DNA of 64,000 bases from Christensenellales bacterium (GCA_050953005.1 JBMNLV010000013.1:29465-93464), one strand, 5' to 3'. Shown: positions 15,381 to 34,220, counted from the first letter of the stretch. Program-made: numbers and translations. The notes: a model not told the origin generated them from the letters alone.

Positions 15381-16795
15381 TGGAGCGCAACCTTTCTTTA
15401 AACAAGGTGCCGATGCCCAGTCAGGACCCGCGGGAGCGCATTGGCAACTTTCAGGAGGTCGCCCTGGGCTATACGAGGGAAATGGCCATGCAGGAGGCTG
15501 CCCGCTGCCTGTCATGCAGGAACAAGCCCTGTGTGGAAGGCTGCCCGGTGCGCATCGATATCCCGGGGTTCATCAGCCGGATCGCGCAGGGGAATATGGA
15601 GGAGGCCTACCTCATCCTCAACCGTGACAGCGCGCTGCCGGCGGTGTGCGGGCGCGTTTGCCCGCAGGAGAGCCAGTGCGAGCAGAAATGTGTGCGCGCT
15701 GTCAAGGGCGAGGCCGTGGCCATCGGCCGCCTGGAGCGCTATGCCGCGGACTGGTACCGCCAAAGCGCCTGCAAGCTGCCTCCGCGGCCGCAGCCCAACG
15801 GGCACAAGGTAGCGGTGGTGGGCGCGGGCCCGGGCGGGCTGACTGCCGCCGGCGAATTGGCGCGCATGGGCTATGCCGTGACCGTGTTTGAAGCCCTGCA
15901 CCTGCCGGGCGGCGTGCTCACCTACGGCATCCCGGAGTTCCGCCTGCCCAAGAGCATCGTCATGGAGGAGGTGGAGGCCTTAAAGCGCCTGGGCGTGGAG
16001 ATCATGCTCAACACCGTCATCGGGAAGACCCTTACGGTTGACGAGCTGCTGGAGATGCGTTTCGAGGCGGTCTTTATCGCTTCCGGCGCCGGGCTGCCGC
16101 GCTTTATGGGCATCCCGGGCGAATCGCTCAAGGGCGTGTACTCGGCCAACGAGTACCTCACGCGCATCAACCTGATGCAGGCCTACCGCGAGGACGCGAA
16201 AACCCCCATCATGCGCGGCAATCATGTGGCCGTGGTGGGCGGGGGCAATGTGGCCATGGACGCCGCGCGCTGCGCCCGGCGTCTGGGCGCGCAGGAGGTC
16301 AGCATCGTCTATCGCCGCAGCATGAATGAGCTGCCCGCCCGGCAGGAGGAGGTTCACCACGCGCAGGAGGAGGGCATCATCTTCCGCGTGCTTACCAACC
16401 CTGTCCGGGTGCTGGGCGATGACAAAGGCTGGGTGCGCGGGCTGGAATGCGTGCGCATGACCCTGGGCGAGCCGGACGCCTCCGGGCGCCGGCGCCCGGT
16501 GGAGCAGCCCGGCAGCAACTATGAGCTGTCCGCTGATGTGGTGGTCATCGCCATCGGCACCTCCAGCAATCCCCTCATCCGCCTGACTACCCCGGGCCTG
16601 GAGACCGACCGCTGGGGCGGCATCGTGGTGAACGGGCCGGATGGCCTGACCAGCCGCGAAAGGGTTTATGCCGGAGGCGATGTGGTGACCGGCTCGGCCA
16701 CCGTTATCCTGGCCATGGGCGCGGGAAAGGACGCCGCGCGCGCCATTGACCGGATGATCCGCGCCGGTCAGGCGCCGGATGAAACAATGATGTGA
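15377..16795 (+). CDS. nfnB: NfnB / NADPH-dependent glutamate synthase small-chain homologue
   Basis: 472 aa. N-terminal Cys clusters (CLSCRNKPCVEGCP, CGRVCPQESQCEQKC), two Rossmann GxGxxG motifs (VVGAGPGG, VVGGGNVAMD), and GGDVVTG near the C-terminus. Confidence 0.8.
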   Translation: MMERNLSLNKVPMPSQDPRERIGNFQEVALGYTREMAMQEAARCLSCRNKPCVEGCPVRIDIPGFISRIAQGNMEEAYLILNRDSALPAVCGRVCPQESQCEQKCVRAVKGEAVAIGRLERYAADWYRQSACKLPPRPQPNGHKVAVVGAGPGGLTAAGELARMGYAVTVFEALHLPGGVLTYGIPEFRLPKSIVMEEVEALKRLGVEIMLNTVIGKTLTVDELLEMRFEAVFIASGAGLPRFMGIPGESLKGVYSANEYLTRINLMQAYREDAKTPIMRGNHVAVVGGGNVAMDAARCARRLGAQEVSIVYRRSMNELPARQEEVHHAQEEGIIFRVLTNPVRVLGDDKGWVRGLECVRMTLGEPDASGRRRPVEQPGSNYELSADVVVIAIGTSSNPLIRLTTPGLETDRWGGIVVNGPDGLTSRERVYAGGDVVTGSATVILAMGAGKDAARAIDRMIRAGQAPDETMM

Positions 16796-17934: not shown

Positions 17935-18074
17935 GGGTTCCTCCCTCGGTGGCTTGGACCCCGCGTGGATCCGCCATGATTGTACCCGTTCCGGGCGCGT
18001 TTTATCCGGGCTTGCAAACTGACGCGGCAACATCAAATTTGGATGCAAATACAATAAGGTATTCAGTGAATTCT

Positions 18075-18765
18075 TCCGGATGCTCAGCCCTGCAGCTTTG
18101 CTGGTATTCAAACAAGACCAGTTGCTGTGGCACCTCACGCCCGGTACGGTACAGCCACACATATAACTTTTACTTTGCGCCTTTTTCCCCGGCTCGTTCA
18201 GCGCCTGCAAGGTGGTTTCATCCGCGTACAGTATATCTTGCTTCAGCAGTTCCGCCTTCATCCGCTCGTAGACCGGCTGAAGCCAAAGGGCTGTCGCTTT
18301 CAGCAGCCAGTTGGACATGGTTTGCCGGGACAGCGGTACACCTGCCCGGCTATATTCCTGTTCCTGGCGATATAGCGGAGAATACATGACTATTTCTAGG
18401 TCATGATATGAGCAATGGCCTCCGGCGTGGCAATGCTGCCCTTGATGACCGCCGGGTCTGCCTGAGCGGACTTTACCGGGGTTGTGATGTCATGCTCCTG
18501 ACAGTGTTAGCAGGTGTATTTGTGCATATGGGTTTCTTCCACTACAAACCTGGCCGGGATGATTTTCAGGCGCCTGGTAACATCCTTGCCGATGTCACTC
18601 ATTTGCCCCTGACACTGGGGGCATACACATTCCTCTTTCGTCAGGGTCTTCTCAATGACCTCTACCTCGATATCTTCCGGCAGTTTTTCCTGGGTGGAAC
18701 GGCGGCGCGCTTTCCACGCATGCGCTTTCACTGCGACTGTCCTACACTTGACTGTTAACATCACC
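18075..18765 (-). pseudogene. IS66-family transposase remnant (zinc-finger and first part of the DDE domain; lacks both ends)
   Basis: Segments VKAHAWKARRR..LPEDIEVEVIE..CPQCQGQMSDIGKDV..IPARFVVEETHMHKYTC, then YSPLYRQEQEYSRAGVPLSRQTMSNW...ADETTLQALNEPGKKAQSKSYM and, after a frameshift, WLYRTGREVPQQLVLFEYQQS..EHPEEF. Contains in-frame stop codons (TAA, TAG) and frameshifts. Homology stops near 18075. Confidence 0.75.
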
Positions 18766-18838
18766 CATGTTAACCTACAGCCAAGGAGGGATAAAGACAA
18801 GCTTTGCTCCACAACAAATAAGCAACTCAAGCTAATTT

Positions 18839-18990
18839 ATTCCAATCTTTATTATATCGTCGCACCGGGTCTTTGATTGCCCTACTATGTTAGTCGACCT
18901 CAACGTAGCTTAAGCTACGCCATCGGTTTCTTTCCTTGCAGGGCAATAAAATCCCTCGCCGCTTTAGATGCAATAAAGTTTTTCATTACA
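18839..18990 (+). repeat. interspersed repeat family A, copy 2 (AT-shifted variant)
   Basis: Alignable with 6161..6331 and 34067..34220. Contains the palindrome cgtagcttaagctacg at the conserved hairpin position. Confidence 0.6.
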
Positions 18991-19027
18991 TAAATCGTGT
19001 GATATTATTATCTTTAAAGGTGAATCG

Positions 19028-21400
19028 ATGAGTATTGTATACAATCCTTTGTTGATTGGAGACTATCCTTTATTTGAGGTAGCTTTTCTTCATGGTCATC
19101 ATCATTTTTCACTACAGGAGCATTCAAAAATTGAATTTATTTATGTACTCAAAGGAACGGTTACAGTTGTGACGAACGAGAAAGAATATTACCTGTCAAA
19201 GAAAAACTTTGTTCTTCTTTCGTCGCATCAACAGCACACTATTTCACCTTCTACTAAAGCACTCTTTGTTTCTATACGTTTTGCGGCAGATATTGAAAAA
19301 CGGTATTGTTCATTTTACGGTTTGGGGGGGTCTTGGGATGAAATTCGAAAAGAAGAAACAGAAAGAATCCAGATGACTTTCGAGAAAATGATCCTTTGGT
19401 TTCTTGATCAAAATCCAAAGAGTATTATGATTTGTCAGAGTTTATTTTTTGAACTAATTTACCTTTTTGCAAGCATATTTCAGAATAAAAATAGCAACAA
19501 TTCAGAAACAGAGGAAAGAAAACTCATAATTGAGAAATATTTAATGGAAAATTATCGTGCTCCTATCGGACTTTCTGATTTAGCAAAACATCTGCATCTT
19601 TCAGAAGTGTATTTATCAAAAATCTTTAAGCAAATGTTCGGAAAAAATTTCCATGATTACCTAAAGGGAATACGTTTGGAGGCTGCAAAAGAAGATCTTA
19701 TATATTTTGAAAATCGCAGAATTCTTCAGGTTGCTATAGAGAACGGATTTCCGAATATTTCCTCTTTTAACAATATCTTTAAAAAAAGTACAGGATTGAC
19801 TCCACAGGCCTTCCGATCACAACAACTACAACAAAAGAAGACCAATTTAGAAGATGATAAAGTAGTTTTACAAACTCTTTCAATTTTACAAAGTACATTA
19901 GATAAAGAAAAAGTGAAAATGAAAGTGATTGAGTGTATGGTAAATGAAGGCATGCCCTATGATAAGGGATGGGAGCATGCAATAAATGTTGGTAGAATAA
20001 CAGATTTGTTTCGCTTTGATATACAGAACCACATTCGACAGCTTTCGCGAGATTTCTCTTTTCGTTACTTGAGAATATGGGGGCTTTATGATGATGAACT
20101 TCATATCTTTTCTCGTTGGAGAAAAGAGAAGCATGACCAATCACTTCAATTTGATTTTTCCAGGTTGGACCGTATACTGGATTTTCTTGGAGAACTAAAG
20201 CTCATACCGTATATTGAGATGGGATTTAAGCCAAAGCTACTGATTCGGTCTGAAGGAGACGCGATCCTTCATGAGAATGCGGTTATTCCTTGGAAAAATC
20301 CTGAAGAGAGCCGCCTATTCTTTCGAAGTTTTTTTACTCATCTTACTCAACGTTATGGAAGCGAAGAAGTTGGAAAGTGGTATTTCGAGCTTTGGTATAA
20401 TTATTTTGATGAAAATGGCAGTACAGTTCAATACTATATTGAGCTCTTCTCTATAATCGAAGATGAGCTTAGACAGACAGTTCCATATGCAAAGCTAGGC
20501 GGAATTGGAGATTTCCCAGATTTAATGAGAGATTCGCTTCGCTCTGTCAGTACAAGATTTGATTTTTTATCAGCATACAGTTATTCGTTGTTTAATCGTT
20601 CTTCTTCTACAGAAAGAACAGCAATAAAAACCTTTGACCTGATGCCAACTATTGATCAACTACATGCGCTTGCAGCAGAAAACCCCAAAAGCCAAGAAAT
20701 CCATATTACAGAATGGAGCTCGTCTGTTTCAAGTAGAAATCAGATGAACGACAGTTCGGATAAAGCCTGCCATATTATTCAAGATTGTATATCCTCTATC
20801 GGGAAAATAGACATGCTTATATACTGGCATGCATCTGATTTGAATGCCGAATACAAGGACACTCAGAGTCCTCTGTTTGGTGGAGCTGGACTTTTGACTA
20901 TACATGGAATTCAAAAGCCAGTTTATTATGCTTTTCGTTTTTTGCATTATATGGGGTCCATTCTTCTTTGGAAAAACGAAGAGACGCTTATCACAAAAGA
21001 TATTTGGGGTGATTATCAGATCCTTTGTACATATGGAAGAGGACTGCGGCTGGAAGCTAATATATCATTTGAGGAAGATTTGCAGTATCTTTCAGAAGAA
21101 GATATTTATGAGCAAAAGGAGCAGGAAAAGCGAATCTTTGTATTGAAGAATATTTCTTCAGGAAGTTATAGAATCACAAGCAGGCTAATTAACCCAAAGA
21201 CAGGGAGCATTGATACTTTGTTCCGTGGATTAGGGAAGAAGGAAGATGAACTGTTAAAGGAGGATATTTTTCTACTGTCGAAGCGCTGTATTCCGTCTAT
21301 TATAACGGAAAAGGTAGAGTCATTAAATAACCAGCTTTCGGTTACTATTATTATGGAGCCTGGAGAATTTCGTTATATCAACATCGAACGAATCAAGTGA
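19028..21400 (+). CDS. AraC-family transcriptional regulator fused to a GH39-like glycoside-hydrolase-fold domain
   Basis: 790 aa. Has an N-terminal cupin-like sensor and an AraC HTH (LSDLAKHLHLSEVYLSKIFKQMFGKNFHDYLKGIRLEAAKEDL...GFPNISSFNNIFKKSTGLTPQAFR). The C-terminal ~500 aa follow the GH39 pattern (FRYLRIWGL, PYIEMGFKP, RYGSEEVGKWYFELW, IHITEWSS, GGAGLLTIHGIQKPVYYAFRFL). Confidence 0.75.
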   Translation: MSIVYNPLLIGDYPLFEVAFLHGHHHFSLQEHSKIEFIYVLKGTVTVVTNEKEYYLSKKNFVLLSSHQQHTISPSTKALFVSIRFAADIEKRYCSFYGLGGSWDEIRKEETERIQMTFEKMILWFLDQNPKSIMICQSLFFELIYLFASIFQNKNSNNSETEERKLIIEKYLMENYRAPIGLSDLAKHLHLSEVYLSKIFKQMFGKNFHDYLKGIRLEAAKEDLIYFENRRILQVAIENGFPNISSFNNIFKKSTGLTPQAFRSQQLQQKKTNLEDDKVVLQTLSILQSTLDKEKVKMKVIECMVNEGMPYDKGWEHAINVGRITDLFRFDIQNHIRQLSRDFSFRYLRIWGLYDDELHIFSRWRKEKHDQSLQFDFSRLDRILDFLGELKLIPYIEMGFKPKLLIRSEGDAILHENAVIPWKNPEESRLFFRSFFTHLTQRYGSEEVGKWYFELWYNYFDENGSTVQYYIELFSIIEDELRQTVPYAKLGGIGDFPDLMRDSLRSVSTRFDFLSAYSYSLFNRSSSTERTAIKTFDLMPTIDQLHALAAENPKSQEIHITEWSSSVSSRNQMNDSSDKACHIIQDCISSIGKIDMLIYWHASDLNAEYKDTQSPLFGGAGLLTIHGIQKPVYYAFRFLHYMGSILLWKNEETLITKDIWGDYQILCTYGRGLRLEANISFEEDLQYLSEEDIYEQKEQEKRIFVLKNISSGSYRITSRLINPKTGSIDTLFRGLGKKEDELLKEDIFLLSKRCIPSIITEKVESLNNQLSVTIIMEPGEFRYINIERIK

Positions 21401-21687
21401 TTTTTTTTCGAAGCATTTTGTAATAAGATTATCGGTAAAAGCATGCTAAGAAAATAGTAAGTTTCTTAACCTAGTTATATTTTTTATATGTCAATGAGAT
21501 AAAAAATCACCATAATTAAATCCCAACATACTAAAAAATGGTTAGATAATAACCAAATTTTGAAGTACCATTGCATTCAACAAATGGGAGGGAGGTGCCC
21601 CCAAATTGATGGGAAGTGCGGACAAAAAGAGTTTCATGATATTTCTCTTTTATCCACACTCTAGTAAAAAGAAAGGAGAAACGGTTT

Positions 21688-22686
21688 ATGGGTAGAATCA
21701 AAAGAGCAGTAAGCCTTTATAGCTTCCAGGATAGATATGTAAAAGGGATCATGCAGCTGGAAGATATGTTCGCATATCTGAAGGAGAACAACTGCGGGAT
21801 GGAGATTCTGACTGACCAGATGGTTCCAGGAGCTCCTCGTCCTACAGAGGAAACTTATGCCTGGTGGGATAATTTGATGAATAAATATCAAGTGACACCG
21901 GTAATCAATGATATTTTTGTCAATATCAATCTTTTTAAAGGACGGGAAGTTTCACCCAAGGAAGGAGCTAGCATGCTCATTGACGAGCTAAGGATGTCAA
22001 AAAGGCTAGGTTTTCCGATGGTTCGCTTACTATCCTTAACGCCTGTGTCAATCATTGAACGTGCATTGGATGAAGCAGAAAAACTAAATATTACCATAAC
22101 AGCAGAAATTCATGGAAGCATGTCCTTTGATAATCCCAACTCTGCTAATTTTATTAGACTGATGCGGGAAAGCAAATCCAGCAGACTGGGTCTTGTTATT
22201 GACACAGGTATTTTTTGCCGGAAGTTTCCACGTGCAGTCAGAATGTATCATAGTACACTGGGCACCAATGAAGCCGTTTGCCAGTTTGTGGATGATGTAT
22301 ATGACAGAGGCGAGGATATTTTGTCTCTAATTAAGAAAAATGGTGGACAAGCACCGGATGATTTAAAAAAACTCTACACTGGTCCTTATGACTCTGAATA
22401 CATAGATTTAGCTTGCACTTTTGAGAACGCTCCTATCAATATTCTTGATGAGTACTTGCCTCATGTCTGTCATTTCCATGGGAAAGTTTATGAGATGACT
22501 GAAAATGGGCAGGAATATTCAATTTCCTATCCAGAATTGATTGATTACCTGAAAGCTCATAATTATGATGGATATATTGCCACAGAATATGAAGGAAATC
22601 GCTACACATTGCCCGGTCATCCTGTGATCGAAATGGAACAGGTAAACGCTCATCAGAACTTATTACGTCAACTCTTAGGCGAATAA
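21688..22686 (+). CDS. xylose-isomerase-like TIM-barrel protein, candidate C-glycoside deglycosidase alpha subunit
   Basis: 332 aa, TIM-barrel isomerase/epimerase-like (MVRLLS, TAEIHG, HFHGKVYEM, YIATEYEGNR). Followed 13 nt later by a small DUF6379-like gene and, in the same island, a Gfo/Idh/MocA oxidoreductase. Confidence 0.6.
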   Translation: MGRIKRAVSLYSFQDRYVKGIMQLEDMFAYLKENNCGMEILTDQMVPGAPRPTEETYAWWDNLMNKYQVTPVINDIFVNINLFKGREVSPKEGASMLIDELRMSKRLGFPMVRLLSLTPVSIIERALDEAEKLNITITAEIHGSMSFDNPNSANFIRLMRESKSSRLGLVIDTGIFCRKFPRAVRMYHSTLGTNEAVCQFVDDVYDRGEDILSLIKKNGGQAPDDLKKLYTGPYDSEYIDLACTFENAPINILDEYLPHVCHFHGKVYEMTENGQEYSISYPELIDYLKAHNYDGYIATEYEGNRYTLPGHPVIEMEQVNAHQNLLRQLLGE

Positions 22687-22699
22687 GGGAGGTAGAATT

Positions 22700-23095
22700 A
22701 TGTTTGATAATTATATCTACATCGATGGTAGCTTAAAAAATATTATCCGCAATGGAAAAAAAGTCGGTTTTGAAATGAAAACAGGCATGCCCTATTATCG
22801 TGGCGTTCCCCTTTCTTTGGTTCGTGATCTATCAGTTGAAGTGGACGGAAAAATTTATGATAAAGAAAAGTTGCTTTTTAGTGTAGATAATGAGGAGTTT
22901 TTCTCGCTGAAAAAAATGGAGACTGTTTACAACATTAAATGGGAGTATGGTGTGCCGGCTACTGTTCGTGTTATGGAAGAAGGCGGACTGGAAAAAGGAG
23001 AACATAGAGTTAAACTCTATGTCAGTATCATAATTCATTACGTTCCTTTCCCTTCGGCTGGTACACGTACGGTGATAGACTTTGTTGATGAATAA
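22700..23095 (+). CDS. small beta-rich protein, candidate C-glycoside deglycosidase beta subunit (DUF6379-like)
   Basis: 131 aa: MFDNYIYIDGSLKNIIRNGKKVGFEMKTGMPYYRGVPLSLVRDLSVEVDGK...GGLEKGEHRVKL. Size, pairing with a TIM-barrel gene and sequence pattern recall CGD beta subunits. Assignment is from memory and needs an HMM check. Confidence 0.5.
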   Translation: MFDNYIYIDGSLKNIIRNGKKVGFEMKTGMPYYRGVPLSLVRDLSVEVDGKIYDKEKLLFSVDNEEFFSLKKMETVYNIKWEYGVPATVRVMEEGGLEKGEHRVKLYVSIIIHYVPFPSAGTRTVIDFVDE

Positions 23096-24587
23096 TGAAA
23101 GAGAATTGTCTATGGAAACGATTCTAGAACTGAAAAATATTACAAAGACTTTCGGAAAAGTAAAGGCACTGAGCAATGTAAGCATTGCTGTACGAAAAGG
23201 GGAAGTACATGCGCTGGTCGGAGGAAATGGTGCAGGTAAGTCTACCCTGATCAAGATTCTGACAGGTGCTCTCTCGCCTGATTCCGGGGAAATTATATTA
23301 AAAGGAAAGAAGTATAATTCTCTTACTCCATCAGAATCAATGAACGAAGGAATCTCCGTGGTTTATCAAGAGCTGAACCAGATGGAATCCATGACTGTAG
23401 CTGATAATATCTTCGTTGGGATACAAAAAAGTGGCTTTATAAACGACAAAGAACGAACTGCACAAACAGAAAAAATACTGGCTCGCTTTGAAACGAATAT
23501 AAGACCAACAGACATAATTGGGCATCTTTCTATAGCACAACGACAAATAGTCGAGATAACAAAAGCGATTTTTCATAAGGCAGATTTGATTATCATGGAT
23601 GAACCTACATCTTCGATCACAATGAAGGATCAGGAACTTCTCATGAACATCATACGCGGATTGCAGAAAGACGGAGTAACAATTATCTATATATCTCACC
23701 GCTTAGATGAGTTGTTTAAAATCTGCGACAGAGCTACTGTGCTTCGAGATGGTCAATACATTGATACCGTAGAAATTAGTAAAATAGATAAAAACGGTTT
23801 AATACGTCTCATGGTTGGGAGAGAACTCTCCGAAACTTTTCCCAAAACCTTTGGCCCATCTGATGAGATAGTTATGCGGGTTGATAAGTTGACTGGTAAC
23901 GGGGTCAAAAATATAACATTCGAACTTAGAAAAGGAGAGATTCTTGGCTTTGCAGGCTTGGTTGGTGCTGGGAGAACAGAGTTGATGCAAGTTATATTCG
24001 GAGCGGAAAAAAAAGAAAATGGTTCAATCACACTTAAAGGTAAAGAAGTAAATTTTCGGAATGTCCGGGACGCACTAGCTTCAGGAATTGCGATGATTTC
24101 AGAGGATAGGAAACAAGGTTGTATTCTGAGAAAACCGATTTTTTGGAATATCACACTTTCATGTCTTCGTAAGCTGAATGAATCGGCATTCATTGATCGA
24201 AAGAAGGAAGATATATTCACTAAAAAGATGATTCAAAAGCTAAGCATTAAGACTCCTTCTGTTACCAATCAAGTTGGAAATCTTTCTGGCGGGAATCAGC
24301 AAAAGGTAGTTATTGGCAAAGCACTTGCTGTGGATCCTGAGATATTGATTTTTGATGAACCTACCCGGGGTGTTGATGTTGGTGCCCGCTATGAAATATA
24401 TTCGGAAATTATAGAACTTACTAAGCAAGGCAAGTCTATAATCATGGTGTCCTCGGATATGGAGGAGTTGCTTGGGATTTCAGATCGGATTGTTATACTC
24501 CATGAGGGTAAGTTAGCTGGTATTGTTGAAAAAAATAAATTCATCCAAGAAACAGTTTTGCGATACGCATCTGGAGAGATAGTGTGA
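23082..24587 (+). CDS. sugar ABC transporter ATP-binding protein (two fused ABC domains, RbsA/MglA-type)
   Basis: 501 aa. Walker A GGNGAGKST, signature/Walker B LIIMDEPTSS, second signature LSGGNQQKV and ILIFDEPTRGVD. An alternative start METILELK lies at 23112. Confidence 0.9.
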   Translation: MLMNNERELSMETILELKNITKTFGKVKALSNVSIAVRKGEVHALVGGNGAGKSTLIKILTGALSPDSGEIILKGKKYNSLTPSESMNEGISVVYQELNQMESMTVADNIFVGIQKSGFINDKERTAQTEKILARFETNIRPTDIIGHLSIAQRQIVEITKAIFHKADLIIMDEPTSSITMKDQELLMNIIRGLQKDGVTIIYISHRLDELFKICDRATVLRDGQYIDTVEISKIDKNGLIRLMVGRELSETFPKTFGPSDEIVMRVDKLTGNGVKNITFELRKGEILGFAGLVGAGRTELMQVIFGAEKKENGSITLKGKEVNFRNVRDALASGIAMISEDRKQGCILRKPIFWNITLSCLRKLNESAFIDRKKEDIFTKKMIQKLSIKTPSVTNQVGNLSGGNQQKVVIGKALAVDPEILIFDEPTRGVDVGARYEIYSEIIELTKQGKSIIMVSSDMEELLGISDRIVILHEGKLAGIVEKNKFIQETVLRYASGEIV

Positions 24588-25534
24588 GAAAAATGAGCAA
24601 AAGAAGAACTTGTAATTTTGACATTGGGAAGCATTTATCTGATTTTTCTCTGGCTATATTATTAGTTTCACTTGTGATTGTATTTTCCATATGGACACCA
24701 AATTTTCTAGTGAGAGTTAACATTACTAATATCTTGGTACAGAATGTTCATATCGCAGTTTGTATGACTGGTGTCCTGATTATCATGATCAGCGGTGGAT
24801 GTGACCTGTCAATCGGATATCAGATTTCCTGTGTAGCAGTTCTGATGACTAAGCTGATTACAGAATATCAGGTAAATTCGGTTATCGCTATCATTCTTGG
24901 TGTTTTATTGGGAGCTCTTCTGGGGCTGTTTAACGGATTCATAGCTCAGAAGCTTAAGAGTCACCCTATGATGGTAACATTAGGTACAATGTCTATCTTT
25001 CAAGGCGTTAGTTATTTGATGAGCAATTCCAAGACTTACTTTAACCTGCCAACAACCTATAAAGTTCTTGGACAGTATCGTATTGGTGGATGGCTTCCAT
25101 TGAATGTGATTGTTATGGTTTTGATTCTAGTAGTGGTTTGGGTTCTGCTAGAAAAAACCTGTTTTGGACGTAACATTTATTCAGTGGGGGACAATCCAGA
25201 AGCCTCTCGTTTGGCTGGCTTGAATGTAAACAAAATCAAAATAATGGCTTTTGTCATTGCTGGAGTATTGGTTGGTATTTCTGCTGTTCTATTGAGTTCC
25301 CGTACAGGCTCTGCAGACTCAACCACCGGTCCTGGACTCGAAATCACCGGTATCACAGCATGCGTTCTAGGAGGTGTTGCACTTAAGGGTGGTGAAGGAA
25401 AACTCTGGCGTTGTATCTTTGCTGTATATGTTCTCGGTGTGCTTTCCAATGGTATGCAGTTAGTGGGCTTGGGAGTGTACCCTCAGTACATTGCAAAGGG
25501 TTGTAATTATGCTGACATCCATCTATCTCTCTAA
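24584..25534 (+). CDS. ribose-type ABC transporter permease (BPD_transp_2 family)
   Basis: 316 aa, multi-TM, RbsC-like (GGCDLSIGY, GRNIYSVGDNPEASRLAGLNV). The C-terminus may be frameshifted at the tt run at 25501-25502. The +1 frame reads ...KGVIMLTSIYLSNRKKKTA* ending at 25556. Confidence 0.85.
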   Translation: MRKMSKRRTCNFDIGKHLSDFSLAILLVSLVIVFSIWTPNFLVRVNITNILVQNVHIAVCMTGVLIIMISGGCDLSIGYQISCVAVLMTKLITEYQVNSVIAIILGVLLGALLGLFNGFIAQKLKSHPMMVTLGTMSIFQGVSYLMSNSKTYFNLPTTYKVLGQYRIGGWLPLNVIVMVLILVVVWVLLEKTCFGRNIYSVGDNPEASRLAGLNVNKIKIMAFVIAGVLVGISAVLLSSRTGSADSTTGPGLEITGITACVLGGVALKGGEGKLWRCIFAVYVLGVLSNGMQLVGLGVYPQYIAKGCNYADIHLSL

Positions 25535-25592
25535 TCGGAAAAAGAAGACTGCGTAATTTGCAGCTTCAAAATAATTAAGGAGGTATCTTAAA

Positions 25593-26668
25593 ATGAAACT
25601 TGCTAAGAAAGCTCTCTCTATCCTGGTGGCTGGTGCGATGATTCTCTCGATGTTGGTAGGTACTCTTGTTGTAGCTTACGCGGAAAGTCCCCAAAAAGCG
25701 TATAAAACAGGATTTGTGATTTATAGTACCGGGAATGAATTCTTCCAAGGTATGTATGACGCATTTGTTGAAACCTTTAGGAGCCATGGTTGGGAAGCAA
25801 CCGCTCAAAGTGGACAAGGCGATATAGCAAAGCAAATTGAGCAGATAGAGAATTACACTGCCATGGGTGTTGATGTACTTTTGGTATGGCCTACAGAGGG
25901 TGTCGCAGTTGATGACGCAATAAAAAATGCACAAAACAATGGTATAAAAGTTATGGAAATGGTTAATTGCGGAGAGAATTGGGATGTGATGCTGACCTCG
26001 GATATGAAAGAAATGCAGGAATACTGTAACAAAATGGCTTGCCTTTGGGTTGACAAAATGTTTCCGGATGCGGCCGATAGCACAGTAAATTGTGTTGTGA
26101 TTACTATGTACGCTAACCAGACCAATAAGGATCAGGCGGAAGTTGCGCTCCGCATTGGTGAATATGATTCCCGTATCAAAGTGCTGGGGGAATATACACT
26201 TACCCAAGAAACCATTGATGCTGGTGTTAAGGCTGCAGAAGACATTTGTAATCTGTATCCCGATTTCAACTTAATCATTTCTCCTCAGGGCACAGCTATG
26301 CTAGGTGTAAATCAGTATTTGACATCTATGGCTTCTCCTATCACAGATTATAGTAAAATGGCTATCTTTACTTGCAATGGTTCAGGGGAACAGATGTATC
26401 AAGCGATTAAAGCTTCCAAGAATAATGAAACACCCATGCGTGGTGCTCTGGTGACTAGTGGTGTGAAGCGATCTATGAAGATATCTACATGGTTGCCAGC
26501 GGGATTATGGATGGTTCCATTGAAACCCCTTTCATCTTTTATCCGCCTTACCTGGTCGTAGACGAGAACACTGCAAATGAAATGTTAGAAACAGACGATG
26601 TGCAGTCTCTTACTACTGATGATATTGACGTAGCATTTCCGTTCAGTCTATATAGCACAAAGGAATAA
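25593..26668 (+). pseudogene. periplasmic-binding-protein-type sugar ABC substrate-binding protein, 1-nt frameshift as sequenced
   Basis: Signal peptide MKLAKKALSILVAGAMILSMLVG and an RbsB/PBP1-like body. After ...LVTSGV (about 26465, gg run) the native-looking continuation EAIYEDIYMVASGIMDGSIETPFIFYPPYLVVDENTANEML...LYSTKE* is in the +1 frame and ends at 26668. Confidence 0.8.
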
Positions 26669-26689
26669 TGTAGAAGGAACAATGCCTGC

Positions 26690-27792
26690 ATGAGCAAACT
26701 GAAAATTGGCATCATTGGGTGCGGTGCCATTGCAAACCAAAAACATTTTCCAGCTATGAAAGATAATCAAGATCTTTGCGAAATCGTGGCTTTCTGTGAC
26801 ATCATTAAAGATCGTGCTAAAAGGGCAGCCATAGAATTCGGAACAAGCAATGCAAGGGTTTACGAGGATTATCGTGACTTGTTGGCTGACTCTGAGGCGG
26901 AAATAATTCATGTGCTTACACCCAATGTTTCACACTGTCTTATAACCGTTGATGCATTCGAGGCCGGTAAAAACGTCTACTGTGAAAAACCTATGGCTCA
27001 TAATTCCACAGATGCAAAAGCTATGATTAATGCTTGGAAACAAAGCGGAAAACAGTTCACTATGGATACCAGAATCGCTTCCGACCAGAAATTCAGAACT
27101 TAAAGAAAGCATGTGAGAAAGGAGACCTAGGCGATATTTACTATGGAAAAGCACATGCTGTTCGGCGGAGAGCTGTCCCTACATGGGGAGTGTTTCCGGA
27201 TAAATCCAAGCAGGGTGGAGGCCCATTGATTGACATCGGCACTCATGCGTTAGATATTACTCTCTGGTGCATGGATAATTACGACGTCGAAAGCGTTACA
27301 GGTAGTGTTTTCTATAAGCTGGGCAATCTGCCTCAAGCTACAGAAGGAAATGTTTTTGGTCCTTGGGATCCAGAAAAGTATGAGGTCGAGGATTCCGCAA
27401 TGGGTTTCATCAAGATGAAAAATGGCGCTGCAATTAATCTGGAAGCAGCTTGGGCAATTAATATGACGGAATCTAAAGAAGCCAGTACCACGTTATGCGG
27501 AACACTTGCCGGCGCAGAGATTCTCTCAGGAATGAGTTATCTGGAAGATCAGCTAATTTATAATCGTGGACGTAACGGTCAACTGATGGAGGAAAGAATT
27601 ACATCAGGTGGTAAAGTTGCCTACTTTGAAGGCGGTAGCAGAGATCCAGGAGTGATAGATAATCGTCAATGGCTCGAGGCAATACTCAATGATACAGAGC
27701 CATTGGTGAAGCCTGAGGAAGCACTCATAGTGACCTGTATTTTGGATGCTATCTATCAATCTGCTGAAAAGCACCAGGAAATTAGATTCTAA
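26690..27792 (+). pseudogene. Gfo/Idh/MocA family oxidoreductase, 1-nt frameshift as sequenced
   Basis: ORFs 26690..27103 (MSKLKIGIIGCGAIANQKHFPAM...VYCEKPMA) and 27034..27792 (GYQNRFRPEIQ...GGGPLIDIGTHALD...) are the two halves. Adding one G at 27064-27065 (atgg-a) gives ...GKQFTMGYQNRF.... Confidence 0.85.
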
Positions 27793-27845
27793 TACAAGGT
27801 TTATTGGGGGCGGGGCTGTAGCAAAACTCCAGTTCCACAACTGAG

Positions 27846-27894
27846 AAAAACAGAGCTTGAAGCAGCGAAAGCGGCGACATTGGCTCTGTTTTTT
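27846..27894 (+). terminator. possible intrinsic terminator at the island end
   Basis: aaaaacagagc ... gctctgtttttt. The 6-bp core stem has a long (26 nt) loop and is followed by a T run, so it is weak as a canonical terminator. Confidence 0.35.
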
Positions 27895-27915
27895 GGTAGA
27901 ATTGATGTGTGAAAA

Positions 27916-28345
27916 GTAAGCGTCAAACGCTTTTCTTTACTCTACATTCTTCTGGCGCGTTAATCAGCAACATTCCCGCTATCTGCTCCTCTACGCTCAG
28001 GTCCAGTTTTGGCGCCTCATGCATCCATCAGCCAAGCCAGGTAACGATAGGGATCCAGGCCGTTTTCTTTGCGGTTTCAACCATACTATAAATGACGGCA
28101 CTGGCTTCCGCGCCCTTGGGCACATTGGCGAACAGAAAATTCTTCCGGCCCATCACAAAGGGTTTGATGCTGCGTTCAGCCCGATTGTTGCTGATTTCAA
28201 GCCTGCTATCCTGCAGATAGTTGAGCAAAATGGGCTCAGCCAGATCCTTCCGCTTTCGCAGACGTTCTTCCGGCGGCAAGCTGCTGATCTCATTTTCAAT
28301 GGCAAACAGGCTGTTGCAATACTGCTTCCCGCGAAGAACTTAAAG
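27916..28345 (-). pseudogene. IS66-family transposase remnant (C-terminal part plus terminal inverted repeat)
   Basis: Hand translation: RGKQYCNSLFAIENEISSLPPEERLRKRK...LQDSRLEISNNRAERSIKPFVMGRKNFLFANVPKGAEASAVIYSMVETAK, then with frameshifts NGLDPYRYLAWLMDA and HEAPKLDLSVEEQIAGMLLINAPEECR. The element ends with ...cgcttac (plus strand gtaagcg at 27916), the GTAAGC terminus typical of IS66 IRs. Confidence 0.75.
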
Positions 28346-28464
28346 AACTTTAAGAAACCATAAGATATTGTTAATAGTCTTACGATTTCAACACATCTGC
28401 CGGTGTCGTAGAATAGCATACGCTGCAGGCTTGCAAACCTGAATCAGCGGTTTATAATGATTTT

Positions 28465-28908
28465 ATGATACATCTTCTCGCGTTCGTGGCGCTGGGTACG
28501 GTTGTCTGCGACCTTGCGCTCAAACTGGTTCCCCTGGGCGAACAGCGTGTGCTGCTGCCCGGTGTGCTGGGGCTGGCTTACGCGCAAAACCGCGGCGTGG
28601 CCTTTGGCCTGCTGAACCAAAGCCCCCTTGTCAGTCTGCTGGTCTCCCTGGCGCTGGTGCTGCTGGGCGGCGCCTGCGCGCGCGGGCTGCGCCTTACGCG
28701 CCCGGAGGCGCTGGGCGCGGGCCTGATGCTGGGCGGCGCGCTGGGCAACCTGACGGACCGCGCGCTGCATGGCGCGGTCAGCGATTACCTGCAGCTGCTG
28801 CTGTTCCGTTTTCCGCTGTTCAACCTGGCCGACGCCTGCCTGACCCTGGGGGCCCTGCTGCTGGCGCTTTGCGCGCTGCTGCCGGGCGGGAAGGCGCGCC
28901 ATGTCTGA
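28465..28908 (+). CDS. lspA: lipoprotein signal peptidase II
   Basis: 147 aa, four TM segments, NRGVAFG and FNLAD motifs characteristic of LspA. 8-nt overlap with rluD. Confidence 0.85.
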   Translation: MIHLLAFVALGTVVCDLALKLVPLGEQRVLLPGVLGLAYAQNRGVAFGLLNQSPLVSLLVSLALVLLGGACARGLRLTRPEALGAGLMLGGALGNLTDRALHGAVSDYLQLLLFRFPLFNLADACLTLGALLLALCALLPGGKARHV

Positions 28909-29812
28909 GATTCGCGCGAGGGGCAGCGGAGAACGCCTGGATGTGCTGTTGGCCGCGCAGGGCCTCAGCCGCTCCCAGGCGGCCCGGCTGATCCGGGAGG
29001 GCCGGGCGCGCGTCAAGGGGATTGTGGTGACAAAGCCATCTTTTATCCCAAATATCGGGGATGAAGTGGTGTTGAACCGGCCGGAACCCCTGAAATCCGA
29101 GGCGCAGGCGGAGGACATTCCTATCTGCGTGCTGTATGAGGATGAGGCGCTGGCGGTTGTTGACAAGCCGGCCGGGCTGGTGGTGCATCCCGCGGCGGGC
29201 AAGCCTGACGGCACCCTGGTCAACGCGCTGCTGTTCCACCTTGACAGCCTGTCGGGCATCGGCGGGCAAAAACGCCCGGGCATCGTTCACAGGCTGGACA
29301 AGGACACCTCGGGGCTGATGCTCATCGCCAAGAACGACCGCGCCCACCTGGCGCTGTCCCGCGCGCTGGCGCAGCGGGAGATCAAAAAGCACTACCTGGC
29401 GGTGGTCGCCGGGCAGATGAAGGAAGCTGCGGGGTTCTATGACGGCCCCATCGCCAGAAGCCCCCGGGACCGCAAGAAAATGGCTGTGGTGCCCGGCGGG
29501 CGGGACGCGCTGACCCATTGGCGGCTGGTGCGCCAGGATGAAAAAAGCGCGCTGGTGCTCATTCGCTTGGTCACCGGGCGCACCCACCAGATCCGCGTGC
29601 ATTTTTCAAACGCCCACCACCCGGTGATGGGCGACCCGATCTATGGCCACAAGGGCCTGCCGGCCGCGCCGCGGCTGATGCTGCACGCCTGCGCCCTGGG
29701 CTTCACTCATCCCGTGACCCAGGAGCCCATGGTTTTCACCGCCATGCCGGAGGCTGCCTTTGGCGTGACGGATGAGGATACACTAAAAGGGCTCTGTGAA
29801 AGCCCTTTATAA
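28901..29812 (+). CDS. rluD: RluA-family 23S rRNA pseudouridine synthase (RluD-like, with S4 domain)
   Basis: 303 aa. N-terminal S4-like RLDVLLA...SRSQAARLI, catalytic HRLDKDTSGLMLIAKN, and GRTHQIRVH motif. Confidence 0.85.
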   Translation: MSEIRARGSGERLDVLLAAQGLSRSQAARLIREGRARVKGIVVTKPSFIPNIGDEVVLNRPEPLKSEAQAEDIPICVLYEDEALAVVDKPAGLVVHPAAGKPDGTLVNALLFHLDSLSGIGGQKRPGIVHRLDKDTSGLMLIAKNDRAHLALSRALAQREIKKHYLAVVAGQMKEAAGFYDGPIARSPRDRKKMAVVPGGRDALTHWRLVRQDEKSALVLIRLVTGRTHQIRVHFSNAHHPVMGDPIYGHKGLPAAPRLMLHACALGFTHPVTQEPMVFTAMPEAAFGVTDEDTLKGLCESPL

Positions 29813-31594: not shown

Positions 31595-32569
31595 TCAGAA
31601 GGACTGGGCAAATGGCAGCAGGTCCTCCGGAATCTCAAGGCCAATGGCCTCGCAGTAGCTTTTGTTGATCAGGTACTCAAACTCCGTCTGGCTCTGGATG
31701 GGCATGGCGGATACCTTGGCCTTGCCCTGGAGCAGCTGAGCCGCCATGTGGCCGGTCTGTTCCCCCAGGCGGAAGTAATTGATGCCCAGGGTGAAGGTGC
31801 CGCCGGAGCGCACCTGGCCCTCCTCGCCGCAGGCTACCGGGATCCCCTTGTCCTGGGCGGCCTGGGCCACCAGGGGCATGGAGGAGGCAATGATGTTGTC
31901 CGTAGGCACATAGATGGCGTCTACCTGATCAAGGAGACTTGTGACAGCCTGCTGGACATCATTGGAGGTAGTAACGGTCAATTCTACCACATTGAGGGCA
32001 AGGTCTTCCAGAGCTTCCTTGGCAAGCCTGGCCTGAATCTGGGAATTGATCTCGCTGCCGGTGTAGAGCAGGCCCACCCGCCGGGCATCCGGCACCAGGC
32101 GGTGCAGCATGGCGATCTGTTCCGCTACCGGGTTCATGTCGGTGGTGCCCGATACGTTGAGCCCCGGGGACTCATTGCTGTTGATGAGCTTGGCCGCCAC
32201 ATAGTCTGTCACAGCGGTGCCCAGGATGGGGATGCTGTCCGTCCTGCCGGCCAGGGCCAGGACGGCCGGGGTGGCGATGCCCAGGGCCAGGTCCACCTTG
32301 TCGGCCACGAACATGTCCGCGATGCTGGCGCACAGATCCTGGCTGGCCTGGCCGTTTTGATAGGAGATGCGGATGTTTTTGCTGTCCTCATAGCCCTCTT
32401 CGGCCAAAGCTTTCAAAAAGCCTTCCCGGGCCGCGTCCAGGGCGGGGTGCTGCACGAACTGCAGGATGCCCACGGACAGCTGCTTTTTGGGCTGGAACAC
32501 CAGATAGCCGACCACCGCCAGCGCGAGAACCAGCACCAGGATTATCAGTCCCTTTGTTTTCTTTTTCAT
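31595..32569 (-). CDS. ABC transporter substrate-binding protein (ABC_sub_bind / TrpX-HisX-like family), paralogue 1
   Basis: 324 aa with TM/signal anchor MKKKTKGLIILVLVLALAVVGYL. VGILQFVQHPALDAAREGF... pattern. Preceded by a T-box leader. Confidence 0.85.
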   Translation of the reverse strand: MKKKTKGLIILVLVLALAVVGYLVFQPKKQLSVGILQFVQHPALDAAREGFLKALAEEGYEDSKNIRISYQNGQASQDLCASIADMFVADKVDLALGIATPAVLALAGRTDSIPILGTAVTDYVAAKLINSNESPGLNVSGTTDMNPVAEQIAMLHRLVPDARRVGLLYTGSEINSQIQARLAKEALEDLALNVVELTVTTSNDVQQAVTSLLDQVDAIYVPTDNIIASSMPLVAQAAQDKGIPVACGEEGQVRSGGTFTLGINYFRLGEQTGHMAAQLLQGKAKVSAMPIQSQTEFEYLINKSYCEAIGLEIPEDLLPFAQSF

Positions 32570-32609: not shown

Positions 32610-32860
32610 AAAAAAACGCCCCCTGCGCTTGCAGAGGGCGGATCTACCGCGGTACCACCTCAATTTTCTGTCAACAGACAGCTCAGCGGCAACTGACATT
32701 GCCTGCCCGGGTAACGGTGGGCTTCCGGCACAGCCTACTGTAATTCAGCCTGCGGCTCGCGGGATGTACTCGCCGTCCTGTCCCCCTGCTGCCTTGCACC
32801 ATCCGGCAGTTCTCTTGCGGGGAGCTGGGATGACTACCTGTTCCCGGTCAACACCGTTGC
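32610..32860 (-). promoter_or_regulatory. T-box riboswitch leader 1 (candidate UAC/Tyr specifier)
   Basis: Minus-strand RNA shows a GA/K-turn base (GGUGuUGACCGG ... CCGGAAGCCACC), AG bulge AGAGA and distal loop GGUGCAA. The specifier region is GAAUUACAG (rc of 32738-32746) and the T-box sequence UUGAGGUGGUACCGCGG (rc of 32647-32663). The terminator is CGCCCUCUGC-AAGC-GCAGGGGGCG plus U7 (32610-32640). Confidence 0.85.
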
Positions 32861-34066: not shown

Positions 34067-34220
34067 ATTCCAATCTTCATTGCATCGTCGCGCCGGATCT
34101 TTGATCGCCCTGCTGCGTCAGTCAACCTCAACGCAGCTAAAGCTACGCCGTCGGTTTCCTTCCTTGCGGGACAATTAAATCCCTCGCCGCTTTGGATGCA
34201 ATAAAGCTTTACATCGGTAT
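34067..34220 (+). repeat. interspersed repeat family A, copy 3 (uninterrupted)
   Basis: attccaatcttcattgcatcgtcgcgccggatctttgatcgccc...ccctcgccgctttggatgcaataaagctttacatcggtat. Its 3' end matches the sequence obtained by joining the two flanks of the IS at 6331/7945. Confidence 0.65.

What the first reader, a model, noticed from the sequence alone, without database searches (positions are those of the whole stretch)
21688..27792. Candidate C-glycoside (3-keto-glycoside) cleavage locus
A xylose-isomerase-fold protein (21688-22686) is followed 13 nt later by a 131-aa protein (22700-23095). The size and sequence pattern of the small protein recall the beta subunit of C-glycoside deglycosidases (DUF6379). 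The same operon ends with a Gfo/Idh/MocA oxidoreductase (26690-27792). Established knowledge: CarB/CarC and DgpB/DgpC-type enzymes cleave the C-C bond of 3-keto-C-glycosides generated by an oxidoreductase (DgpA is Gfo/Idh/MocA-type). Here the trio is coupled to a ribose-type ABC importer instead of the transporters described for the gut strain PUE locus. That suggests uptake and intracellular deglycosylation of an unidentified plant glycoside. The substrate and the actual activity are unknown.
Basis: partly seen in the sequence, partly recalled or inferred. Interest (0 to 1): 0.7.

Follow-up and report, generated by a model that had tools for sequence, protein, structure and literature searches.

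The report
Mobile C-glycoside deglycosylation gene cassette
The flagged genes are a real but ordinary DgpA/DgpB/DgpC-type cassette for removing the sugar from plant C-glycosides, complete with its own regulator and sugar-type ABC importer; the unusual part is that it lies on a 10.4-kb low-GC island recently inserted into a high-GC Christensenellales genome.

Summary
The reading as a C-glycoside deglycosidase locus holds.

- **Beta subunit (22700-23095):** matches Pfam CGDB (PF19906) over its full length, E=1.5e-34.
- **Alpha subunit (21688-22686):** matches solved CGD alpha subunits (9m3b_A 1.5e-91; DgpC 2e-23). It keeps the E-x-H / D / H-x-K / E-x-E metal and catalytic motifs.
- **Oxidoreductase:** 73% identical to the characterised DgpA of strain PUE, and the sugar pocket is conserved.
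- **Correction to the observation:** in this window the oxidoreductase, permease and binding-protein genes each carry a one-base frameshift. Two independent assemblies have intact genes and no substitutions. A host aroA gene has the same defect, so these are probably assembly errors.
- **ABC coupling is not unusual:** 18 of 80 related loci in other species carry the same CUT2-type ATPase and permease. NCBI already names the beta subunit.
the operon sits on a 10.4-kb island of 40% GC (18020-28427). IS66 remnants and an 11-bp direct repeat bound it. It is inserted between msrA and lspA of a roughly 60% GC genome, and three other assemblies carry the empty site.

The substrate remains unknown. 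This is a new member of a known kind, of modest interest.

The parts
18020..28427 (.). 10.4-kb inserted island (40.5% GC; core 18900-27850 is 39.0% GC) in a host of about 59-60% GC
   Evidence: GC profile. Empty-site contigs L009, L010 and L012 join window 18022 directly to 28428. L011 independently carries the same right junction.
18009..18019 (.). Left copy of the 11-bp direct repeat GGCTTGCAAAC; the right copy is at 28428-28438 and the empty site has a single copy
28428..28438 (.). Right copy of the 11-bp direct repeat; it overlaps the -35-like TTGCAA of a promoter-like site before lspA
18160..18830 (-). IS66-family transposase remnant, N-terminal part (zf-IS66 at 18507-18830; DDE_Tnp_IS66 profile positions 21-92 at about 18160-18387), frameshifted and truncated
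18839..18986 (.). About 150-nt element also present in host DNA at 34067-34214 (86% identity) and 6157-6287 (72%); probably the 5' end region of the IS66-type element
   Evidence: no Rfam match
19028..21400 (+). 790-aa AraC-type regulator (cupin + HTH_18) fused to a GH39-like domain that lacks the acid/base Glu; a likely glycoside sensor and activator
   Evidence: Homologues lie within 10 kb of alpha/beta pairs in 43 of 80 related loci.
21688..22686 (+). C-glycoside deglycosidase alpha subunit (DgpC/DfgA/CarB type, xylose-isomerase-like TIM barrel)
   Evidence: PDB 9m3b_A 1.5e-91, 8qvc_A 5e-50, 7bvs_A 3e-25, 7bvr_A 2e-23, 7dnm_A 8e-19. Invariant E140, H142, D172, H264, K266, E300, E302.
22700..23095 (+). 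C-glycoside deglycosidase beta subunit (DgpB/DfgB/CarC type, formerly DUF6379)
   Evidence: Pfam PF19906 CGDB E=1.5e-34. PDB 9m3b_B 3.7e-25, 7bvr_B 5.5e-16. NCBI names it a CGD beta subunit domain protein.
23112..24587 (+). CUT2-type (RbsA/AraG/XylG-like) double ABC ATPase, 491 aa
24584..25556 (+). CUT2-type permease (BPD_transp_2); frameshifted in the window by an extra T at 25501, intact (323 aa) in L001 and L011
25593..26668 (+). Solute-binding protein (Peripla_BP_4); frameshifted in the window by a missing G at 26477, intact (358 aa) in L001 and L011; ligand unknown
26690..27792 (+). DgpA-type glycoside 3-dehydrogenase (Gfo/Idh/MocA); frameshifted in the window by a missing T at 27063, intact (367 aa) in L001 and L011
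27918..27932 (+). Terminator-like hairpin followed by a T run, after the last gene of the operon
   Evidence: a consensus match only
28028..28279 (-). IS66-family transposase remnant, C-terminal part (DDE_Tnp_IS66 profile positions 240-284, plus IS66_C according to the L011 gene call)

Best explanation
The locus is a self-contained cassette of the DgpA/DgpB/DgpC type for uptake and two-step deglycosylation of aryl C-glucosides.

Proposed working, with the basis of each step:
1. The AraC regulator senses a glycoside through its catalytically disabled GH39-like domain and activates the operon downstream of the 287-bp intergenic region (inferred).
2. The CUT2-type ABC importer brings the glycoside into the cell (inferred from conserved linkage).
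3. The DgpA homologue, with bound NAD, oxidises the 3''-OH of the glucosyl group to a ketone (inferred from 73% identity to the characterised enzyme and a conserved pocket).
4. The Mn2+-dependent alpha/beta lyase removes the C2'' proton through the conserved His142. It then cleaves the C-C bond by beta-elimination, releasing the aglycone and 1,5-anhydro-D-erythro-hex-1-en-3-ulose. This follows from homology to solved CGDs and conserved metal and catalytic residues; the mechanism itself is from PMC8563793.

The cassette arrived by horizontal transfer from a low-GC Firmicute. It is a 10.4-kb island bounded by IS66 remnants, and it is present in some members of this Christensenellales population and absent in others. 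The three frameshifts in this window are most likely assembly errors, so the natural allele is intact.
For: - **Beta subunit:** Pfam CGDB at 118.6 bits over the full length; PDB DgpB1, DgpB and DfgB chains at 3.7e-25 to 1.8e-13.
- **Alpha subunit:** PDB CGD alpha chains at 1.5e-91 to 8e-19. E140, H142, D172, H264, K266, E300 and E302 are invariant across 19 relatives. In one search they align with the EVH, D, HGK and EYE motifs of DgpC. These are the positions PMC8563793 and PMC9939296 give as metal ligands and catalytic His/Glu.
- **Alpha-beta association:** beta follows alpha in 77 of 80 species-level loci; in the other 3 the fetched DNA ends at or just after the alpha gene. A natural beta-alpha fusion exists in 8qrz_A.
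- **Oxidoreductase:** 617.7 bits and 264/361 identical residues to DgpA 7xr9. K100, R159, W166, D182, H186, F223 and E264 are conserved.
- **Linkage to transporter and regulator:** CUT2 ATPase and permease homologues (46-67% identity in 15 of the loci) lie within 10 kb in 18 of 80 loci. AraC-GH39 regulators occur in 43 of 80 and DgpA-like genes in 54 of 80. All seven components occur together in L027 and L050, and L033 has the same alpha-beta-ATPase-permease-binding protein order. Clostridium intestinale shows the same linkage.
- **Island:**
- **Frameshifts as errors:** all five indels are single bases, mostly a doublet read as one base or the reverse. L001 and L011 agree with each other against the window. 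There are no substitutions between the window and L011 across about 6 kb of island. Host aroA carries the same kind of GGGG-to-GGG frameshift.
Against: - No activity or substrate was tested, and no multimer model could be made.
- The alpha/beta pair is only 55% (alpha) and about 50% (beta) identical to its nearest solved relative (9m3b). I could not find that relative's substrate in the literature library. Identity to the puerarin enzyme DgpB/C is only about 25-30%.
- CUT2 binding proteins classically bind monosaccharides. This one has no close solved relative (best 38.7 bits), so import of an aryl glycoside is an inference.
- The cassette lacks the second AP_endonuc_2 protein, the second Gfo protein and the FMN_red protein that accompany 42, 44 and 27 of the 80 related loci. 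How the sugar product is recycled and how DgpA's cofactor is re-oxidised in this host is therefore open.
- As it stands, the window sequence encodes three broken genes.
Confidence: 0.8

Rival explanations
1. The same enzymes act mainly on O-glycosides or other 3-keto-glycosides rather than on C-glycosides. On this view it is a general route of 3-oxidation followed by beta-elimination for aryl O-glucosides or small saccharides.
For: DgpA-type enzymes oxidise both O- and C-glycosides, and 3''-oxo O-glycosides then lose the aglycone (PMC11239390). DgpA/B/C also processes the O-glucoside daidzin (PMC9939296). This alpha clade is common in soil Neobacillus and Bacillus, and in Streptococcus, Enterococcus and Listeria. 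The transporter is of the monosaccharide (CUT2) type.
Against: Every characterised relative found that has a CGDB beta subunit is a C-glycoside deglycosidase. The O-glycoside eliminase described in PMC10628242 is unrelated in sequence (abstract shown).
Confidence: 0.13
2. The cassette in this genome is a decaying, non-functional pseudogene cluster: the frameshifts in the permease, binding protein and DgpA genes are real.
For: There are three in-frame-breaking indels, one in the DgpA ribosome-binding region and one in the IS remnant, all between 25501 and 28068. The cassette is foreign DNA and lacks the accessory genes.
Against: The five indels come with no substitutions, which is not a natural mutation spectrum. 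Two independent assemblies have intact genes. The housekeeping aroA gene shows the same homopolymer frameshift in this window.
Confidence: 0.05
3. The low-GC segment is an assembly chimera from another organism, joined at IS66 repeats.
For: GC jumps from about 60% to 39%. IS66 fragments lie at both edges. The Logan contig L001 stops inside both edge regions, at 18661 and 27911.
Against: An independent JGI assembly (L011) crosses the right junction at the identical base in a host background that differs by 0.5%. An 11-bp host sequence is duplicated at both ends, whereas the empty sites carry one copy.
Confidence: 0.02
4. The TIM-barrel protein belongs to an inosose dehydratase or hydroxypyruvate isomerase-type pathway, and the small ORF is unrelated to it.
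For: A weak AP_endonuc_2 hit (27.7 bits). The N-terminal half of the oxidoreductase gives sub-threshold hits to IolG models.
Against: There is no NCBIfam hit for alpha or beta. The IolG scores of 63-70 bits are far below the cut-offs of 355-540. The specific CGD alpha and beta matches are overwhelming.
Confidence: 0.01

Closest known systems
DgpA / DgpB-DgpC of human gut strain PUE (PDB 7xr9/7xre for DgpA; 7bvr/7exz for DgpB/C)
   Same: The same three-protein logic: a Gfo/Idh/MocA 3''-oxidoreductase plus an alpha/beta Mn2+ lyase in one operon. The oxidoreductase is 73% identical with a conserved sugar pocket. Alpha and beta are homologous, with conserved catalytic and metal residues.
   Different: Alpha and beta are distant from DgpC and DgpB (86 and 62 bits) and belong to another CGD clade. 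This cassette carries a CUT2 ABC importer and an AraC-GH39 regulator and has only seven genes. The PUE operon is described as eight genes, dgpA-H, whose content I could not inspect.
'P581a DgpC1 / DgpB1' (PDB 9m3b), the nearest solved relative
   Same: Full-length matches: alpha at 310 bits (1.5e-91) and beta at 92 bits (3.7e-25). It belongs to the same clade as the 80 Firmicute loci.
   Different: Only about 55% (alpha) and about 50% (beta) identical. No paper for this entry was found in the library, so its substrate is unknown to me.
Uncharacterised CGD loci of Clostridium intestinale (L007), Fusibacter sp. (L050) and Vallitaleaceae MAG (L027)
   Same: An alpha/beta pair, a DgpA-like gene, an AraC-GH39 regulator and a CUT2 ABC importer are clustered together.
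   Different: Alpha is 44-47% identical. C. intestinale (L007) additionally carries a second AP_endonuc_2 protein, a second Gfo protein and an FMN_red protein; whether L027 and L050 do was not examined individually. None of these three loci was examined for mobile-element signatures.
Soil CGDs: CarB/CarC-type AgCGD2 (7dnm), and the 8qvc/8qrz entries (from memory, Deinococcus aerius; not verified here)
   Same: The same alpha/beta architecture and active-site motifs; 8qrz is a natural beta-alpha fusion.
   Different: According to the literature (abstracts), the soil systems use FAD-dependent GMC C-glycoside 3-oxidases instead of a Gfo/Idh/MocA DgpA.

Membership tests
C-glycoside deglycosidase (CGD) alpha/beta enzyme | The beta subunit belongs to Pfam PF19906 (CGDB, formerly DUF6379) above the gathering score | tested here: met
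   118.6 bits against a cut-off of 27.6, E=1.5e-34, profile positions 1-112 of 112
C-glycoside deglycosidase (CGD) alpha/beta enzyme | The alpha subunit is a xylose-isomerase-like TIM barrel homologous to solved CGD alpha chains | tested here: met
   9m3b_A 1.5e-91, 8qvc_A 5.2e-50, 7bvs_A 2.6e-25, 7bvr_A 2.3e-23 and 7dnm_A 8.1e-19, nearly full length
C-glycoside deglycosidase (CGD) alpha/beta enzyme | Mn2+ ligands and catalytic His/Glu (AgCGD2 E147, H149, D179, H269, K271, E305, E307; DgpC H143, E301) | tested here: met
   E140, H142, D172, H264, K266, E300 and E302 are invariant in 19 relatives. They align with the EVH, D, HGK and EYE motifs of DgpC. The mapping to AgCGD2 numbering is by motif and spacing, not by a displayed alignment.
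C-glycoside deglycosidase (CGD) alpha/beta enzyme | The alpha and beta genes are adjacent and the proteins form a heterocomplex | tested here: inconclusive
   Adjacency is met: a 13-nt gap with a separate Shine-Dalgarno site, and beta follows alpha in 77 of 80 loci. Complex formation could not be modelled; the only support is the natural fusion 8qrz_A.
C-glycoside deglycosidase (CGD) alpha/beta enzyme | Cleaves the C-C bond of 3-oxo-C-glycosides | not testable with these tools
   Needs an enzyme assay
DgpA-type glycoside 3-dehydrogenase (Gfo/Idh/MocA) | Close homology to characterised DgpA, including the sugar-pocket residues | tested here: met
   For the intact allele (L001): 617.7 bits and 73% identity over 361 aa. 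K100, R159, W166, D182, H186, F223 and E264 are conserved.
DgpA-type glycoside 3-dehydrogenase (Gfo/Idh/MocA) | An uninterrupted reading frame in this window | tested here: not met
   A 1-nt deletion at 27063 splits the gene. This is probably an assembly error.
CUT2 (ribose/xylose/arabinose-type) ABC importer | A fused double ATPase, a BPD_transp_2 permease and a Peripla_BP_4 binding protein | tested here: met
   However, every equivalog model falls below its cut-off (for example RbsA at 531 bits against 745), so it is not a ribose, xylose or arabinose transporter proper.
Inosose dehydratase / hydroxypyruvate isomerase-type pathway | The TIM-barrel protein matches IolE- or Hyi-type models | tested here: not met
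   No NCBIfam hit at E<=0.01; the Pfam AP_endonuc_2 match is below its gathering score
IS66-bounded composite transposon | Two complete IS copies with terminal inverted repeats and the family's short target duplication (8 bp, from memory) | tested here: not met
   Only truncated, frameshifted transposase pieces are present. They are arranged C-part, cargo, N-part on the minus strand, with no terminal inverted repeat of the insert and an 11-bp direct repeat.

The most novel reading that the evidence does not exclude
A compact seven-gene module for C-glycoside use (sensor-regulator, importer, DgpA, and the CGD alpha and beta subunits) travels as a mobile unit. It moved from a low-GC Firmicute into a high-GC Christensenellales lineage through an IS66-associated circular intermediate, and it is still polymorphic (present or absent) in natural populations. 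If so, the capacity to release aglycones from dietary C-glycosides can spread horizontally between distant gut lineages. The divergent alpha/beta clade it carries may also target a C-glycoside class not yet assayed.
Probability: 0.3. Interest if true: 0.5.

Novelty: new member of a known kind. Interest (0 to 1): 0.3.

Why it matters
C-glycosides such as puerarin, orientin, vitexin and mangiferin resist ordinary glycosidases. Gut bacteria that carry DgpABC-type enzymes therefore determine whether the bioactive aglycones are released.

This locus adds a divergent member to that enzyme family. Its closest relatives in the protein database are 67% identical for alpha and 82% for DgpA. It also shows such a cassette sitting on a recently acquired island whose presence varies between strains of a Christensenellales bacterium. 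That bears on predicting C-glycoside metabolism from taxonomy alone.

It does not reveal a new mechanism or open a long-standing question.

Tried and rejected
- **Literature for the nearest solved relatives:** searches for 9m3b/9m3d ('DgpB1', 'DgpC1', 'P581a', 'W974-1') returned nothing relevant. The substrate of the nearest characterised pair is therefore unknown to me.
- **IS66 circle hypothesis:** I tested whether the two IS66 transposase pieces form one continuous gene when the insert is circularised through the 11-bp repeat. The N-part ends near 'HPEEF' and the C-part resumes near 'LFAIENE'. About 50 unrelated codons lie between them, so a simple circular permutation without further deletion is not supported.
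- **Terminal inverted repeats of the insert:** none was found.
- **Rfam:** no known RNA family lies in the island or matches the 150-nt repeat.
- **Left-flank look-up:** an exact-sequence look-up of the left-flank host protein (15377-16795) found nothing. The right-flank protein gave the informative contigs instead.
- **Donor lineage:** it could not be identified. The best alpha relative is 67% identical and comes from unnamed Logan contigs whose transporter is Opp-type. The best DgpA relative is 82% identical and also unnamed.
- **Structure prediction:** it was not run. Sequence matches to crystal structures were already decisive, and no multimer option exists.
Full report
**Observation.** The ORFs at 21688-22686 (332 aa) and 22700-23095 (131 aa) exist as described. 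They are separated by 13 nt that contain a GGGAGG ribosome-binding site. An ABC ATPase, a permease, a binding protein and a Gfo/Idh/MocA gene follow on the same strand. A 790-aa AraC-type gene lies upstream, across a 287-bp intergenic region.

The Gfo/Idh/MocA gene is not a single ORF in this window. A missing T at 27063 splits it into 26690-27103 and 27034-27792. The permease (extra T at 25501) and the binding protein (missing G at 26477) are also frameshifted.

**Identity of the pair.**
- The 131-aa protein matches Pfam PF19906 'C-glycoside deglycosidase beta subunit' end to end (118.6 bits, E=1.5e-34). It also matches the solved beta chains 9m3b_B (3.7e-25), DgpB 7bvr_B (5.5e-16) and DfgB 7bvs_B (1.8e-13).
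- The 332-aa protein reaches only 27.7 bits on generic AP_endonuc_2, below that family's cut-off. Against solved CGD alpha chains it scores 1.5e-91 (9m3b_A), 5e-50 (8qvc_A), 2.6e-25 (DfgA 7bvs_A), 2.3e-23 (DgpC 7bvr_A) and 8e-19 (AgCGD2 alpha 7dnm_A).
- In an alignment of 19 relatives, E140, H142, D172, H264, K266, E300 and E302 are invariant. In one search they align with the EVH, D, HGK and EYE motifs of DgpC. Mori et al. (PMC8563793) give these as the Mn2+ ligands and the catalytic His/Glu (AgCGD2 E147, H149, D179, H269, K271, E305, E307). He et al. (PMC9939296) give DgpC H143 and E301.
- No NCBIfam model for inosose or hydroxypyruvate-type enzymes matches.
- The chain 8qrz_A matches beta with its N-terminal part and alpha with its C-terminal part. 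This natural fusion supports physical association. A multimer model could not be run.

**The oxidoreductase.** Translated from the intact allele (L001), it scores 617.7 bits against DgpA of strain PUE (7xr9), with 264 of 361 residues identical. The pocket residues listed in PMC9939296 (K100, R159, W166, D182, H186, F223, E264) are all conserved. This family is very large and slowly evolving: more than 7,400 clusters reach E<=1e-100, typically at 72-82% identity. The similarity therefore places the enzyme in the DgpA family but says little about substrate.

**The frameshifts are probably errors.**
- A Logan contig (L001, SRR13001970) and a JGI contig (L011) carry the same island with intact 323-, 358- and 367-aa genes.
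- Against both contigs the window differs by the same single-base indels at 25501, 26477, 26673 and 27063. A fifth, at 28068, is covered only by L011.
- The window shows no substitution against L011 across about 6 kb of island, and one substitution against L001 across 9.25 kb.
- Where displayed, the indels change a doublet to a single base or the reverse.
- The host housekeeping gene aroA (12170-13461) has the same kind of defect, GGGG read as GGG.

The operon lies on foreign DNA.
- GC falls from about 60-65% to 39% between roughly 18.9 and 27.9 kb.
- Three assemblies from other samples (L009, L010, L012) encode a pseudouridine synthase identical to the one at 28901-29812. They join window position 18022 directly to 28428, so that msrA-rhodanese sits next to lspA. 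This is the empty site.
- The insert is 10,405 bp. It is flanked by an 11-bp direct repeat, GGCTTGCAAAC, which is present once in the empty site.
- L011 crosses the right junction at the identical base, in a host background that differs by about 0.5%. An assembly chimera is therefore very unlikely. The left junction is supported only by the window.
- The two edges hold truncated, frameshifted IS66-family transposase pieces on the minus strand. The C-terminal piece is at 28028-28279 and the N-terminal piece at about 18160-18830. They therefore flank the cargo in the order C-part, cargo, N-part.
- This order is what a circular 'IS plus cargo' molecule opened inside the transposase gene would give. 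However, the pieces do not join cleanly, and the insert has no terminal inverted repeats. The mechanism of integration remains unexplained.

**How common is the architecture?** A scan of one genome per GTDB species returned 80 loci with alpha relatives at 42-51% identity. They come from Neobacillus, Bacillus, Clostridium, Lachnospiraceae, Enterococcus, Streptococcus, Trichococcus, Listeria and others. Counts within 10 kb of the alpha gene were as follows.

| Component within 10 kb | Loci (of 80) |
|---|---|
| Beta subunit directly after alpha | 77 (in the other 3 the fetched DNA ends at or just after alpha) |
| DgpA-like gene | 54 |
| AraC-GH39 regulator homologue | 43 |
| CUT2 ATPase and permease homologues | 18 |
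| Second AP_endonuc_2 protein | 42 |
| Second Gfo protein | 44 |
| FMN_red protein | 27 |

- All seven components of this cassette occur together in L027 and L050. L033 has the same order of alpha, beta, ATPase, permease and binding protein. Clostridium intestinale has the same combination.
- The nearest alpha relative (67% identical) uses an Opp-type transporter instead, and another relative uses MFS carriers. The transporter module is therefore interchangeable, and the ribose-type coupling is not distinctive.
- The accessory genes in the last three table rows are absent from this cassette and from the whole window. By analogy with the levoglucosan pathway (PMC7676230; abstract only), they probably hydrate and reduce the keto-glycal product. 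Their absence makes this a minimal version.

**Mechanism.** Steps shown by homology:
- 3''-oxidation by the DgpA homologue;
- Mn2+- and His-dependent beta-elimination by the alpha/beta enzyme.

Steps that are inferred:
- induction through the AraC regulator, whose GH39-like domain has lost the acid/base Glu (the query has a gap opposite 'WNEPN' of XynB1 1w91) but keeps the nucleophile motif 'HITEW';
- import of the glycoside by the CUT2 system, whose binding protein has no close solved relative.

The substrate is unknown. DgpA-type enzymes also oxidise O-glycosides (PMC11239390), so a broader role in 3-keto-glycoside metabolism cannot be excluded.

**Comparison and novelty.** This is a DgpA/DgpB/DgpC-type system. 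The family is in Pfam. NCBI's pipeline already labels this very protein (MGI6726650.1) as a C-glycoside deglycosidase beta subunit domain protein. Multiple dgpBC clusters per genome are documented in gut Lachnospiraceae (PMC11170127).

It is a new, fairly divergent member of a known kind. The modestly interesting addition is its location on a recently acquired, strain-variable island in a high-GC Christensenellales MAG.

Noticed in passing
window 18839-18986, 34067-34214, 6157-6287: An element of about 150 nt is repeated three times: once inside the island, next to the start of the IS66 transposase remnant, and twice in host DNA (86% and 72% identity). It has no Rfam match. It is possibly the end region of an IS66-type element, or solo ends of such an element.
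   Followed up: partly
window 18160-18830 and 28028-28279 (minus strand); repeats at 18009-18019 and 28428-28438: The IS66 transposase remnants flank the cargo in permuted order (C-part, cargo, N-part), with an 11-bp direct repeat of host sequence. A simple circular-intermediate model does not restore a continuous transposase gene. The integration mechanism is unexplained.
   Followed up: partly
window 12170-13461: The host aroA gene (EPSP synthase) is split into two frames by a one-base homopolymer deletion near 13326 relative to L010. This suggests that the window sequence has sporadic indel errors.
   Followed up: yes
window 19028-21400: The AraC regulator carries a C-terminal GH39-like domain in which the acid/base 'NEP' Glu is deleted while the nucleophile motif is kept. 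Similar AraC-GH39 fusions accompany 43 of 80 related CGD loci. This looks like a conserved, uncharacterised class of glycoside sensors.
   Followed up: partly
window 32631-32860 (minus strand): A T-box leader (Rfam RF00230, 94.6 bits, just above the gathering score of 93) lies upstream of an ABC_sub_bind binding-protein gene (31595-32569) and its permease and ATPase genes.
   Followed up: no
L005 (ENA ERZ27258037 k141_8841) and L006: A relative's locus holds two CGD alpha/beta pairs, two Gfo genes, an AraC-GH39 regulator and MFS carriers. These sit next to an Oxidored_FMN ene-reductase and a DAPG/phloretin-hydrolase-type gene, so the locus looks like a full flavonoid C-glycoside degradation island.
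   Followed up: no
L011 versus window 28444-28463: Six substitutions cluster within 20 nt just right of the island junction, in the lspA promoter-like region. They are seen only in the other island-bearing assembly; the empty-site contigs match the window there.
   Followed up: no
window 26673: One of the window-specific indels lies in the ribosome-binding region between the binding-protein stop (26668) and the DgpA start (26690).
   Followed up: partly
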